A stretch of DNA of 64,000 nucleotides, taken from NCBI RefSeq assembly GCF_050320075.1, contig NZ_CP190018.1. One strand, given 5' to 3'. This document shows positions 43,301-46,300 of the stretch, in pieces. The stretch comes from Escherichia coli. Its GTDB lineage: Bacteria > Pseudomonadota > Gammaproteobacteria > Enterobacterales > Enterobacteriaceae. Within the stretch, counting starts at the first letter, position 1. Each line of letters opens with the position of its first letter. The position numbers are program-made.

Positions 43301-46300
43301 GAAAATTCATATGTGTTTAGATAAATTTTTTAACTACAAATGTTCTTACTGTCTTCGGAACAATTTTGTCGAGCCAGGTTGCGGACAATCGCCTGAACCT
43401 TTTCCTGTTCACATCGCCAGGCCTCATCAATAATTTTCGCGGCCCATGATGGAATATGCGGTGATAAGCGGTAATGAACCCACTTACCCTGCTTGCGATC
43501 CAGCAATAGCCCACTTTCACGCAGCAATGCCAGGTGGCGGGATATCTTGGGCTGCGACTGATCGAGGGCAGTACAGAGATCGCAGACGCATAATTCTCCC
43601 AGCTCGCTGAGCAGTAAAACGATGCCCAGACGGGTTTCATCAGCAAGAATTTTGAACAGTTGGATGGGTAACAGAAATGACATATTGCGCTCCTGATTGT
43701 TGCAGGTAGTGTCTCTCTTCGAAGCGGATAAGTCAAAAACATATATGACTTAACGAATGTGTAAGCGCAGAAGAAGGTAATAGGTGTGAATTTTGAGTTG
43801 GGTATTCATTTGAAAGGAGGTCTGAATCAGGACGTAAAAAAACCGACTTTGCGTCGGTTTTTTACTTTCCAGCCCTGAGTTGGTGGCTCTGGCCGGAGTG
43901 AGAATGCCCACATCTAACGGTTCAATACTATTAGCCAGTGGCTAACATTGCAAGCGTTAGCGATTTCTTCAGCTGGCGAAGGGACAGTTTGCTATACATG
44001 TTGGTGAAAGAGGATTTATATACTTTCATCGGGTCGCTGCCGTACCAGGCCTTGTCCAAATCCGGACGTAAAAAAACCGACTTCGCGTCGGTTTTTTACT
44101 TTGCAGCCCAGAGTTGGTGGCTCTGGCTGGAGTGAGAATGCCATCATCTAACGCATCAATGCTAATACCATACTGAAACTATTGCAAGGACATGCTGGTT
44201 TTATAACCTGTATGTACTGTATGATTATCCAGTTAGTTCTGAGGCATTTTCACTCTGGTAATGCGCATAAACGCTTTCAAAGTCCTGGTCAGAAGTACGG
44301 GTGGTGCCGTTAACTGATGCTCTGGTCGGAGTGAGAATGCCCACATCTAACAATGGGGCATGCGCCGTGACAGGCAGTGGATGAGTAAGCGGATGCATTC
44401 TCACTCCATCGCATGGAGAAAACGGGTGATTGATAAAGCAATCATCGTTCTTGGGGCGTTAATTGCGCTACTGGAACTGATCCGCTTCCTGCTTCAGCTT
44501 CTGAACTGATAGCGGAAACGTAGTTAAGGGCAAAGAGCACACCACTCTTTGCCCTTTAACATTTAACGCATGGTCACGAACTCTTCTGCCGCCGTCGGGT
44601 GAATGGCGACGGTATTGTCGAAGTCTTTTTTGGTCGCCCCCATCTTCAGCGCCACCGCGAAGCCCTGCAACATTTCATCCATACCAAAACCAATGCCGTG
44701 AATTCCGACAATCTTCTCTTCCGGTCCAACGCATACCAGTTTCATGCGGCACGGCTGGCGGTGAGTGGTGACGGCGGTATACATCGCGGTGAAAGAGGAT
44801 TTATACACTTTCACCTGATCGTCGCCGTACTGCTCGCGCGCCTGCGGTTCCGTTAAACCAACAGTACCAATCGGCGGATGGCTGAAGACCACGGTCGGAA
44901 TGTTGCTGTAATCCAGATGCTCATCAGGCTTGTTATTAAACAGGCGTTCAGAGAGACGGCGACCCGCTGCAACTGCCACCGGTGTCAGTTCCACTGCCCC
45001 CGTGTTATCGCCCACAGCGTAAATACCTTCAACGTTGGTATTTTGATATTTATCGACGACGATATAGCCTTTTTCGTTAGTTTTAACGCCAGCGGCTTCC
45101 AGGTTGATGTTGTCATTGGCAGGCTCGCGACCAATCGCCCAAATCAGGCAATCTACCGTTTCACTGCGACCATCTTCCAGCTCCAGCGTCAGGCTGCCGT
45201 CGGCATTTTTCACCACCGCTTTCGGGATGGCGTTGGTGTGCAGCTGCGGGCCTTCGGCGTTCATCACTTCGACCAGCGTTTCAGAGATCATCGGGTCGAA
45301 GCTGCGCAGCGGCGCATGTTTACGCACAAACAGATGCGTTTTCGCGCCGAGGCCGTTAATCACGCCCGCCAGCTCAACGGCGATGTAACCCGCGCCAACA
45401 ACCGCCACGCGCTCTGGCAAAGCAGGAAGGGCGAAGAAGCCATCAGAATCAATACCGTATTCCACGCCCGGAATATCCGGGTGGCTCGGACGACCGCCGG
45501 TGGCGATCAGAATATGATCGGCCGTGATGGTTTCGCCGTTTACCTCCAGCGTTTTGGCATCAACGAAGCGGGCAAAGCCTTTGATTACATCAACGTTATT
45601 TTTACCGAGCACGTTTTCATAGGAAGTATGAATACGGTCGATATAGGCGGTACGGCTGGCGATCAACGTTTCCCAGTTGAATTTATTTATAGTGGTATCG
45701 AAACCATAATCCGGACCGTACATGTGGATCGCTTCACGGATTTGCGCCGCGTGCCACATCACTTTCTTCGGTACGCAGCCGACGTTCACGCAGGTGCCGC
45801 CCAGCTCTTTGGCTTCAATCAGCGCGCATTTCTGGCCGTACATAGCCGCGCGGTTGATGGAGGCGATACCGCCGCTGCCGCCGCCGATGGCGATGTAATC
45901 ATAGTGTTTAGTCATGACAGAGTGTCCTTATCGTTGATTACCGCGATTGTAGCGCGAGACGTAATAGGTGCCAGCAATGGCTGCAATTACTCCGGCACGA
46001 TCCAGCTTACGGTGGCGTGCCCGGTGCCTGCCGGAACCAGTTTGCTGTGCAGCCACGGCAGCACGTTATTCATCTGCTGTTCCAGCTTCCACGGCGGGTT
46101 AATCACAATCATGCCGGAAGCGGTCATGCCACGGCGATCGCTGTCTGGCAGTACCGCCAGTTCAATTTGCAGAATTTTGCGAATGCCGGTCGCTTCCAGG
46201 TCGTGGATCATGCGCTTAATTTGCTGGCGCAACACCACTGGATACCACAGTGCGTAAGTGCCAGTGGCGAAACGTTTATAGCCTTCTGCTATCCCGCTGA

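What the first reader, a model, noticed from the sequence alone, without database searches (positions are those of the whole stretch)
43985..44050. Degenerate copy of gor codons embedded in the agr intergenic region
Plus-strand 43985-44050 is about 80% identical by eye to gor 44776-44832. Read on the minus strand it translates [21 protein letters not shown], against Gor ..[21 protein letters not shown]. The agr/dinQ locus therefore seems to contain a relic of a partial gor duplication.
Basis: seen in the sequence. Interest (0 to 1): 0.45.

Follow-up and report, generated by a model that had tools for sequence, protein, structure and literature searches.

The report
Decayed gor fragment inside dinQ-agrAB locus
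A roughly 55-base stretch between the two small antitoxin RNA genes agrB and agrA of E. coli is a real, decaying, non-functional copy of part of the neighbouring glutathione reductase gene (gor), best read as a scar of an old tandem duplication that covered the whole dinQ toxin-antitoxin module and the end of gor.

Summary
Window 43993-44045 matches gor 44778-44830 on the same strand at 44/53 bases (83%). The local-alignment score is 35, against 10.9 +/- 1.3 (maximum 19) in 2000 shuffles. Nothing else in the window, in 28 Gb of E. coli genomes or in 7.3 Gb of plasmids matches it except gor.

It lies between agrA (44068-44151) and agrB (43834-43917). It is decaying neutrally: changes are mostly non-synonymous, K-12 carries a 4-bp deletion, and about 29% of complete E. 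coli genomes lack the spacer.

Orthologous relics with the same junction to the agr unit occur in E. whittamii and E. albertii. E. albertii also keeps the stop-codon end of gor, so the original copy probably spanned about 269 nt.

Plasmid dql/agr modules lack the relic.

Best model, at moderate confidence: one ~785-bp tandem duplication of [agr-PdinQ-dinQ-terminator-gor 3' end], then a ~550-bp deletion in the arsR-side copy. That left an orphan antitoxin gene (agrB) plus this fragment.

I found no mention of it in the papers searched. It is a new example of a familiar kind of feature (a gene relic), useful for the locus history, with no sign of function.

The parts
43993..44045 (-). Core of the gor relic, same sense as gor. 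It corresponds to gor 44778-44830 (Gor residues ~[17 protein letters not shown]).
   Evidence: 44/53 identical, E 2e-9. Score 35 against shuffles 10.9 +/- 1.3. Translation. Orthologous copies in other lineages.
43970..43992 (.). Stretch of uncertain origin between the decayed agrB-promoter homology and the relic core. It may be further gor-derived sequence (gor ~44755-44777) with indels.
   Evidence: MAFFT aligns GCTGGCGG here with gor, and other lineages have CGG directly before the core. Tested alone, the extension is not better than shuffles (P 0.2-0.5). Similarity to the dinQ ORF end (family D4) is also not significant.
44046..44053 (.). 8-nt filler at the junction between the end of the gor relic (GTAC) and the start of the agrA unit: CAGGCCTT here, TAAGCCTT in K-12 and E. 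whittamii, TAAATTTT in E. albertii.
   Evidence: Alignments. It resembles neither gor 44831-44838 nor the sequence left of the agrB unit.
43820..44053 (.). Repeat unit 1 (234 nt): agrB gene, its promoter region, then the relic.
   Evidence: the repeat finder D1: 43820-43933 against 44054-44167, 89% identical, spacing 234. In-register identity falls from 9-10/10 to ~5/10 by 43969, then to chance.
43834..43917 (-). agrB sRNA gene (arsR-proximal copy). Its 5' 33 nt match the dinQ target with 1 mismatch in this window.
   Evidence: Rfam RF02891, 106 bits. Naming follows the MG1655 annotation order gor-dinQ-agrA-agrB-arsR. Mismatch count.
44068..44151 (-). agrA sRNA gene (dinQ-proximal copy). It has 4 mismatches to the dinQ target in this window.
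   Evidence: Rfam RF02891, 98 bits.
44206..44234 (+). dinQ promoter region with LexA operator sequence (TACTGTATGATTATCCAGTT).
   Evidence: Read from the sequence. LexA operators and promoter are described in PMC3567139.
44319..44351 (+). 33-nt agr-complementary target in the dinQ 5' UTR, the third copy of the repeat.
   Evidence: the repeat finder D2.
44426..44509 (+). dinQ ORF (27-aa toxin, GTG start).
   Evidence: ORF list. RefSeq dinQ annotation at the matching place in other genomes.
44528..44554 (.). dinQ terminator hairpin, ending 8 nt before the gor stop codon. It is the right-hand end of the plasmid-type module.
   Evidence: Sequence. Homology with plasmid dql modules runs to 44559. 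Described in PMC3567139.
44563..45915 (-). gor (glutathione reductase), the parent gene. 44778-44830 is the segment copied in the relic, and 44563-44830 is the inferred original extent of the duplicated piece.
   Evidence: ORF of 450 aa. Annotated gorA in matching genomes. Extent inferred from E. albertii.

Best explanation
The stretch is a non-functional, neutrally decaying fragment of gor.

Most likely history:

1. A plasmid-type type I toxin-antitoxin module (agr antitoxin sRNA, LexA-controlled dinQ toxin, terminator) sat directly after the gor stop codon in an early Escherichia.

2. A tandem duplication of about 785 bp copied the segment [agr - agr promoter - dinQ promoter - dinQ - terminator - last ~269 nt of gor]. 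This gave agr1-dinQ1-gor'-agr2-dinQ2-gor.

3. In the lineage leading to E. coli and E. whittamii, one deletion of about 550 bp removed the dinQ1 promoter, dinQ1, its terminator and the stop-codon-proximal ~210 nt of gor'. What remained was agr1 (today's agrB, an orphan antitoxin gene) followed by the distal ~55 nt of gor' (this relic), abutting agr2 (today's agrA).

4. E. albertii instead lost copy 1 altogether and lost the middle of gor'.

What is shown: homology to gor, position, the shared junction, independent decay, and absence from plasmid modules. What is inferred: the order and number of events.

The relic itself does nothing today. It is spacer DNA 76-128 nt upstream of the agrB transcription start.
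For: - **Homology to gor:**
- **Neutral decay:** 7 of the 9 core differences change amino acids. K-12-type relics have a 4-bp deletion. Lineages keep different gor bases. Identity to gor is 45/56 for the window, 41/52 for K-12, 48/56 for E. whittamii and 44/56 for strain SCPM. The consensus is 49/56, and 55 of 56 positions keep the gor base in at least one lineage.
- **Dispensable:** the spacer is present at >=80% coverage in 3832 of 5426 complete E. coli genomes. One-agr variants lack it.
- **Shared junction:** GTAC | 8 nt | GTCCRAATC-agr occurs in E. coli, E. whittamii and E. albertii, and in all 10 further E. albertii genomes read.
- **Original extent:** E. albertii keeps both ends of gor'. 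TTAACGCATGGTCATGAATTCTTTCGCCGC matches the gor stop codon and last codons at 26/30 (p 5.5e-4 against all of gor). ACCTGATTGCCGCCGTAC matches gor 44813-44830 at 16/18.
- **Canonical module:** plasmid dql modules are agr directly followed by the dinQ-like promoter and gene, with no gor-like DNA. The module's left border (CCARAATCCAGRCGT) and right border (terminator, to 44559) match the edges of unit 2.
- **Repeat geometry:** the two agr units are homologous from 43820/44054 through the promoters to about 43969/44203, with the relic immediately after. One duplication plus one deletion predicts exactly this.
- **Orthology of the single E. albertii agr:** it is closer to the dinQ-proximal copy (91.3% against 87.8%).
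- **Literature:** Weel-Sneve et al. already proposed that the sRNAs were tandemly duplicated (PMC3567139).
Against: - No genome retaining two dinQ copies flanking a long gor' was found. 5421 of 5422 E. coli genomes have a single dinQ.
- The 8-nt filler at the junction and the 23 nt at 43970-43992 are not explained.
- The E. albertii left piece is short. Its first bases overlap a microhomology with an inserted phage-plasmid fragment, so the inferred 269-nt extent rests on about 24-30 nt.
- Single-agr lineages (E. albertii, Escherichia sp. E1V33) have to be explained as secondary losses of copy 1.
- The agr genes are constrained and may undergo gene conversion, so their divergence cannot date the duplication independently.
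Confidence: 0.55

Rival explanations
1. Integration scar. When the module entered the chromosome, the last ~269 nt of gor were duplicated on both sides of it. This could happen by Campbell-type single crossover of a circle carrying module plus a gor 3' fragment, or by a long target duplication. The known precedent is the icd 3'-end duplicate left by prophage e14. The far-side copy decayed to the relic. agrB arose later, by a separate local duplication of the agr unit that landed to the left of the relic.
For: In E. albertii the structure is literally gor'-(single agr-dinQ)-gor, with both ends of gor' present. The module is of plasmid type and widespread on conjugative plasmids. The module's right end is flush with the gor stop codon.
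Against: It needs an extra event to place a second agr unit, with the same left boundary at 43820/44054, on the far side of the relic. No trace of gor' is detectable left of agrB (igrL against the gor 3' end, p 0.2-0.3). No integrase or att-like feature is present. None of the plasmid modules examined carries gor DNA.
Confidence: 0.22
2. Filler DNA. A short tandem duplication of the ~150-nt agr unit was formed by a replication template switch that copied ~55-80 nt from nearby gor into the joint. Under this reading the relic was never longer than it is now.
For: In E. coli and E. whittamii only ~55 nt of gor similarity is statistically supported. Complex duplications with templated insertions from nearby sequence are a known class (own knowledge). 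Tandem agr copies also occur in plasmid loci.
Against: E. albertii has the same junction without a second agr copy. It also has a piece matching the gor stop-codon region next to that junction, which a 55-nt filler does not predict.
Confidence: 0.15
3. The element is functional. Either it is the 42-aa ORF 43931-44059 (minus strand), or it is a regulatory piece: an upstream element of the agrB promoter, or a source of RNA complementary to gor mRNA.
For: The ORF is open in this window. The 18-mer GGTGAAAGAGGATTTATA is identical to gor here. The relic lies 76-128 nt upstream of the agrB start.
Against: The frame is broken by a 4-bp deletion in K-12-type genomes. The two main E. coli haplotypes are only 36/52 identical. 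About 29% of E. coli genomes lack the spacer. The substitutions are mostly non-synonymous. There is no Rfam match to the relic itself.
Confidence: 0.04
4. Chance resemblance or a low-complexity artefact.
For: None beyond the short length.
Against: 0/2000 shuffles reach even 19 against an observed 35, Gumbel p ~5e-11. The relic is collinear with gor, on the same strand and in frame. Orthologous relics in other lineages keep complementary sets of gor bases. Database searches return only gor.
Confidence: 0.01

Closest known systems
Tandem duplication of agrA/agrB proposed for the E. coli dinQ-agrAB locus (Weel-Sneve et al. 2013, PMC3567139)
   Same: The locus and the two sRNA genes are the same, and so is the idea that they arose by tandem duplication, with one copy partly degenerate.
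   Different: That paper treats the sRNA genes as the duplicated unit and does not mention gor-derived DNA. The relic implies a much larger unit: the whole module plus the gor 3' end, followed by loss of one toxin copy.
Duplicated gene 3' ends left at integration sites, e.g. the icd 3' fragment beside prophage e14 in E. coli K-12 (own knowledge, not checked here)
   Same: A short, decaying direct repeat of the 3' part of a housekeeping gene lies on the far side of inserted foreign DNA, while the gene itself stays intact.
   Different: No integrase, att site or prophage is present here. In E. coli a second antitoxin gene lies beyond the relic, which fits a tandem duplication better.
Plasmid dqlB/dinQ-like-agrB type I addiction modules (Kristiansen et al. 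2016, PMC5066626; pOXA-48 study, PMC12365149)
   Same: The agrA-dinQ part of the locus has the same layout and 70-80% nucleotide similarity. Tandem agr copies also occur on plasmids.
   Different: None of the plasmid modules has the gor-like piece. The relic is specific to the chromosomal Escherichia locus.
Orphan or extra antitoxin sRNA genes at chromosomal type I loci, e.g. OrzP of zor/orz (PMC11264685)
   Same: An antitoxin gene persists without its adjacent toxin after copy-number change.
   Different: Here a datable fragment of a flanking housekeeping gene records how the orphan arose.

Membership tests
Gene relic (pseudogene fragment) of gor | Statistically significant, collinear, same-strand nucleotide similarity to the parent gene | tested here: met
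   44/53 identical; score 35 against shuffles 10.9 +/- 1.3, p ~5e-11; only hit in the window
Gene relic (pseudogene fragment) of gor | Covers only part of the gene and cannot encode the protein | tested here: met
   ~53-56 of 1353 nt are matched. There is no similarity to the rest of gor in the intergenic region.
Gene relic (pseudogene fragment) of gor | Evolves without coding constraint | tested here: met
   Changes are mostly non-synonymous. K-12-type copies have a 4-bp deletion. Haplotypes are 36/52 identical. The spacer is absent from ~29% of E. coli genomes.
Gene relic (pseudogene fragment) of gor | Orthologous copies at the same site in related genomes, decaying independently | tested here: met
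   E. whittamii, several E. coli lineages and E. albertii share the junction. 55/56 positions keep the gor base in at least one lineage.
AgrB sRNA family (Rfam RF02891) | Match to the covariance model at or above the gathering score (40 bits) | tested here: not met
   The two full hits are 43834-43917 and 44068-44151, flanking the relic. The only match overlapping the relic is a plus-strand hit, 44010-44100, at 24 bits, carried by the terminator.
Canonical dinQ/dql-agr type I toxin-antitoxin module | The sequence is part of the module as found on plasmids and in other chromosomes | tested here: not met
   Four plasmid loci show agr directly followed by the dinQ-like promoter, with no gor-like piece. 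A search of 72,556 plasmid records with the relic finds no true plasmid.
Dispersed repeat or mobile element (REP, MITE, IS end) | Several copies at unrelated sites in the genome | tested here: not met
   There are at most two related places per genome, the relic and gor itself.
Small protein gene (42-aa ORF 43931-44059, minus strand) | Reading frame conserved among relatives | tested here: not met
   The frame is broken by the 4-bp deletion in K-12, E69 and most E. coli, and the locus is absent in many strains.
Integration-site 3'-end duplication (icd/e14 type) | A direct repeat of the gene's 3' end, including the stop codon, brackets the inserted element | tested here: inconclusive
   E. albertii shows gor' (both ends) - agr - dinQ - gor. 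In E. coli, however, another agr unit lies outside the relic, and tandem duplication gives the same picture.
Integration-site 3'-end duplication (icd/e14 type) | Site-specific recombinase or att sites associated with the insert | tested here: not met
   No such gene lies between arsR and gor (879 nt holding only the sRNAs and dinQ).

The most novel reading that the evidence does not exclude
The relic-bearing spacer is not inert. As the DNA 76-128 nt upstream of the agrB start, or through read-through transcripts carrying a gor-like segment, it could tune antitoxin expression or couple the SOS-induced DinQ system to glutathione reductase expression. The two deeply diverged spacer haplotypes in E. 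coli would then be functional variants.
Probability: 0.04. Interest if true: 0.55.

Novelty: new member of a known kind. Interest (0 to 1): 0.3.

Why it matters
The fragment is a datable fossil in a well-studied toxin-antitoxin locus.

- **Size of the duplication.** It shows that the event which produced the two antitoxin RNAs probably covered the whole module and part of a housekeeping gene.
- **Origin of agrB.** One toxin copy was then lost. The surviving orphan antitoxin gene (agrB) became the main antitoxin in K-12.
- **Age.** The arrangement is older than the split of E. coli, E. whittamii and E. albertii.
- **General point.** It illustrates how a plasmid-type addiction module becomes a fixed chromosomal locus.
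- **Annotation.** It flags an unannotated gor fragment in MG1655 (3648169-3648220).

It does not change what is known about how DinQ or Gor work.

Tried and rejected
1. **A second relic left of agrB.** I looked for a more decayed gor 3'-end relic at 43725-43812, prompted by TTAACGnATG...GGTGAAT...GGTATT seen by eye. It is not better than shuffles against gor, against the gor 3' end alone, or against the E. albertii relic (p 0.2-0.9). Rejected as unsupported.

2. **Leftward extension of the relic.** 43960-43992 against gor 44735-44777 is suggestive in MAFFT but not significant alone (P 0.19-0.52).

3. **A remnant of the dinQ ORF end.** Repeat family D4 (43967-43987 against 44492-44512) is not significant (P 0.17-0.63).

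4. **A 'native gor terminator' left of the E. albertii relic.** This was wrong. That flank is a 392-nt piece of a tail-protein gene, 96% identical to ~90-kb E. coli phage-like plasmids, joined at the gor' stop codon.

5. **An intermediate with two dinQ copies.** Only 1 of 5422 E. coli genomes has a second dinQ place, and it was not examined. Ten more E. albertii genomes all have the same structure as the type strain.

6. **The simple promoter/terminator scan.** It did not call the agr promoters or terminators. Boundaries are therefore taken from Rfam, the MG1655 annotation and PMC3567139.

7. **A foreign (plasmid-borne) gor as source.** The relics are at least as close to Escherichia gor as to Klebsiella or Enterobacter gor. 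No plasmid module carries gor DNA.

Full report
**What is in the window.** The region is the E. coli arsR-gor interval.
- arsR lies at 43330-43683 (minus strand) and gor at 44563-45915 (minus strand, 450 aa).
- Rfam finds two full-length AgrB-family sRNA genes on the minus strand, at 43834-43917 (106 bits) and 44068-44151 (98 bits).
- The MG1655 annotation gives the order gor-dinQ-agrA-agrB-arsR. So the arsR-side copy is agrB and the dinQ-side copy is agrA.
- dinQ (27-aa ORF 44426-44509, plus strand) follows, with its LexA-controlled promoter and a terminator hairpin ending 8 nt before the gor stop codon.
- The finding lies between the agrA terminator and the agrB promoter.

- 43993-44045 and 44778-44830 are a direct repeat, 44/53 identical without gaps.
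The next 53-55 nt on either side are at chance level.
- The local score of the spacer against gor is 35. Dinucleotide shuffles give 10.9 +/- 1.3, maximum 19, with 0 of 2000 reaching it; fitted p is about 5e-11.
- In the whole window gor is the only significant match.
- In E. coli genomes that lack the spacer, its only hit in 28 Gb is gorA.
- Among 72,556 plasmid records, only three E. coli chromosomes filed as plasmids and, weakly, Pasteurella gorA match.
- The in-frame translations are [21 protein letters not shown] and [21 protein letters not shown].

**It is a decaying, dispensable fragment.**
- Seven of the nine core differences change amino acids.
- In K-12, E69 and most E. coli the orthologous stretch (MG1655 3648169-3648220) has a 4-bp deletion that breaks the frame.
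- Identity to gor over a 56-nt core is 45/56 in the window, 41/52 in K-12, 48/56 in E. whittamii and 44/56 in E. coli SCPM-O-B-8794.
- Different lineages retain different gor bases. The consensus is 49/56, and 55 of 56 positions keep the gor base in at least one lineage. Independent decay from a gor-like ancestor predicts this pattern, and it is a second line of evidence for homology.
- The spacer is present at >=80% coverage in 3832 of 5426 complete E. coli genomes.
- Variants with a single agr gene lack it and look like unit deletions between the repeats.
- The 42-aa ORF across it is therefore not a gene. Rfam has nothing for the relic itself.

**Where it comes from.**
- Modules of an agr-like sRNA gene directly followed by a dinQ-like promoter and gene occur in 2920 plasmid records, mostly conjugative.
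- In four plasmid loci read in detail, the module runs from CCARAATCCAGRCGT, just left of the agr terminator, to the dinQ terminator. It contains no gor-like DNA, and some loci have tandem agr copies.
- The literature agrees that dinQ proper is confined to E. coli and Shigella. dql relatives are on plasmids and chromosomes of Enterobacteriaceae (PMC5066626). A plasmid DqlB-agrB pair is a validated addiction module (PMC12365149).
- In Klebsiella and Enterobacter, gor is followed by its own hairpin and unrelated genes, with no module.
- So the agrA-dinQ part of the window is a chromosomal copy of a plasmid-type module. Its right end is flush with the gor stop codon and its left end is at 44054.

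**Outgroups.** A scan of one genome per species for a dinQ 22-mer returned E. albertii, E. whittamii, two unnamed Escherichia species and divergent E. coli.
- E. whittamii has the same arsR-agrB-relic-agrA-dinQ-gor layout, with a better preserved relic (87% over 55 nt).
- E. albertii has a single agr gene next to dinQ. Immediately to its left is ACCTGATTGCCGCCGTAC (16/18 to gor 44813-44830), followed by the same junction as in E. coli: GTAC, 8 nt, GTCCGAATCAGG.
- Some 35 nt further left it has TTAACGCATGGTCATGAATTCTTTCGCCGC, which matches the gor stop codon and last codons at 26/30 (p 5.5e-4 against all of gor, both strands).
- Ten further E. albertii genomes carrying the identical Gor protein have the same structure.
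- The ancestral copy therefore probably ran from the stop codon to about 44830, some 269 nt. It has since been trimmed differently in different lineages.
- The shared junction puts its origin before the split of these species. Transfer of the locus between species by recombination cannot be excluded.

**Most likely mechanism.**
- The two agr units are homologous in register from 43820/44054 through the sRNA and promoter to about 43969/44203. About 23 nt later unit 1 continues with the relic, which ends 8 nt before unit 2.
- One tandem duplication of [44054 ... about 44830/44838], roughly 785 bp, would give agr1-dinQ1-gor'-agr2-dinQ2-gor.
- One deletion of about 550 bp in copy 1, running from just past the agr promoter to about gor' 44755-44775, then gives exactly the present E. 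coli arrangement. agr1 survives as agrB.
- E. albertii would have lost copy 1 and the middle of gor'. Its agr is closer to the dinQ-proximal copy (91.3% against 87.8%).
- This extends the published suggestion that the sRNAs were tandemly duplicated (PMC3567139) and needs the fewest events.
- I put it at about 0.55, because no intermediate with two dinQ copies was found and the E. albertii stop-codon piece is short.

**Rivals.**
- *Integration scar:* a duplication of the gor 3' end made when the module integrated, followed by a separate agr duplication (about 0.2).
- *Filler DNA:* a short agr duplication with gor-templated filler at the joint (about 0.15). The E. albertii evidence weakens this one.
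- *Function or chance:* both are very unlikely.

**Comparison with what is known, and novelty.**
- Gene fragments left by duplication or integration are a familiar class.
- The papers on this locus that I could search or read do not mention gor-derived DNA, and MG1655 has no feature there.
- I therefore rate it a new member of a known kind. It has moderate-to-low interest: a useful historical marker for the dinQ-agrAB locus, not a new mechanism.

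Noticed in passing
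window 43886-43918 (agrB 5' end), 44120-44152 (agrA 5' end), 44319-44351 (dinQ target); same elements in L001/L021, L002, L013, L014: The antisense region and its dinQ target vary together between strains. After GGAGTGAGA, the window has ATGCCCACATC in both agrB and dinQ, K-12 has GAGTTCTTATC in both, and strain 027_SK3 has ATGCCATTATC in its single agr and in dinQ. agrA stays near TAGCCATCATC. The best-matching sRNA differs by strain: agrB in the window and K-12 (1 of 33 mismatches, against 4-7 for agrA), but agrA in E. coli E69 (2 against 6). This suggests gene conversion or co-evolution, and that the effective antitoxin is strain-dependent.
   Followed up: partly
L004 (E. coli CREC7837) 538-1008; same class as hits H26-H29: Some E. 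coli carry a clean recombinant between the 33-nt repeat in agr and the one in dinQ. It deletes the agr promoter, the LexA boxes and the dinQ promoter, so the toxin ORF remains but neither gene has a promoter.
   Followed up: partly
L009 (E. albertii) about 4117-4508; L020 1413-1808: Directly beside the E. albertii gor relic lies a 392-nt fragment of a 'phage tail protein' gene. It is 96% identical to ~90-kb phage-like plasmids of E. coli and is joined at the gor' stop codon through an AACG microhomology. A HigB-like toxin / HTH pair follows, then slp.
   Followed up: partly
window 43934-44053 against L001/L021: The two main E. coli spacer haplotypes are only ~82% identical over 102 nt, and 36/52 in the relic core. 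One is the window/O157:H7 type, about 780 genomes at >=95% identity. The other is the K-12 type. This is far more divergence than is typical within E. coli, while the flanking arsR and gor are 94-99% identical. It could be an old polymorphism or introgression. The sample is small.
   Followed up: no
L005 (Salmonella IncFII plasmid) 478-726 and 1442-1728: Plasmid dqlB loci can carry two or three tandem agr-like copies upstream of each toxin gene, and two dqlB modules ~900 nt apart. Antitoxin amplification is therefore recurrent in this family.
   Followed up: no
L003, L004, L011 left flanks; window 41548-43683: The left neighbour of the locus varies: arsRBC here and in K-12, and arsC alone abutting the locus in some E. 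coli. In strain SCPM-O-B-8794 a deletion from within arsB to within the agrB unit leaves the relic plus agrA. The Escherichia species have unrelated flanks.
   Followed up: no
hits H93-H108: Complete gorA genes (~80% identical to E. coli gor) are carried on many Pantoea agglomerans and P. ananatis plasmids from onion. They are unrelated to the relic.
   Followed up: no
L016 (Escherichia sp. MOD1-EC7003) 5178-5343: This genome keeps only the 3' two-thirds of the dinQ region next to gor (window-equivalent 44397-44562). It has no agr gene and no dinQ promoter, and its ORF has several substitutions. It looks like a decayed module.
   Followed up: no
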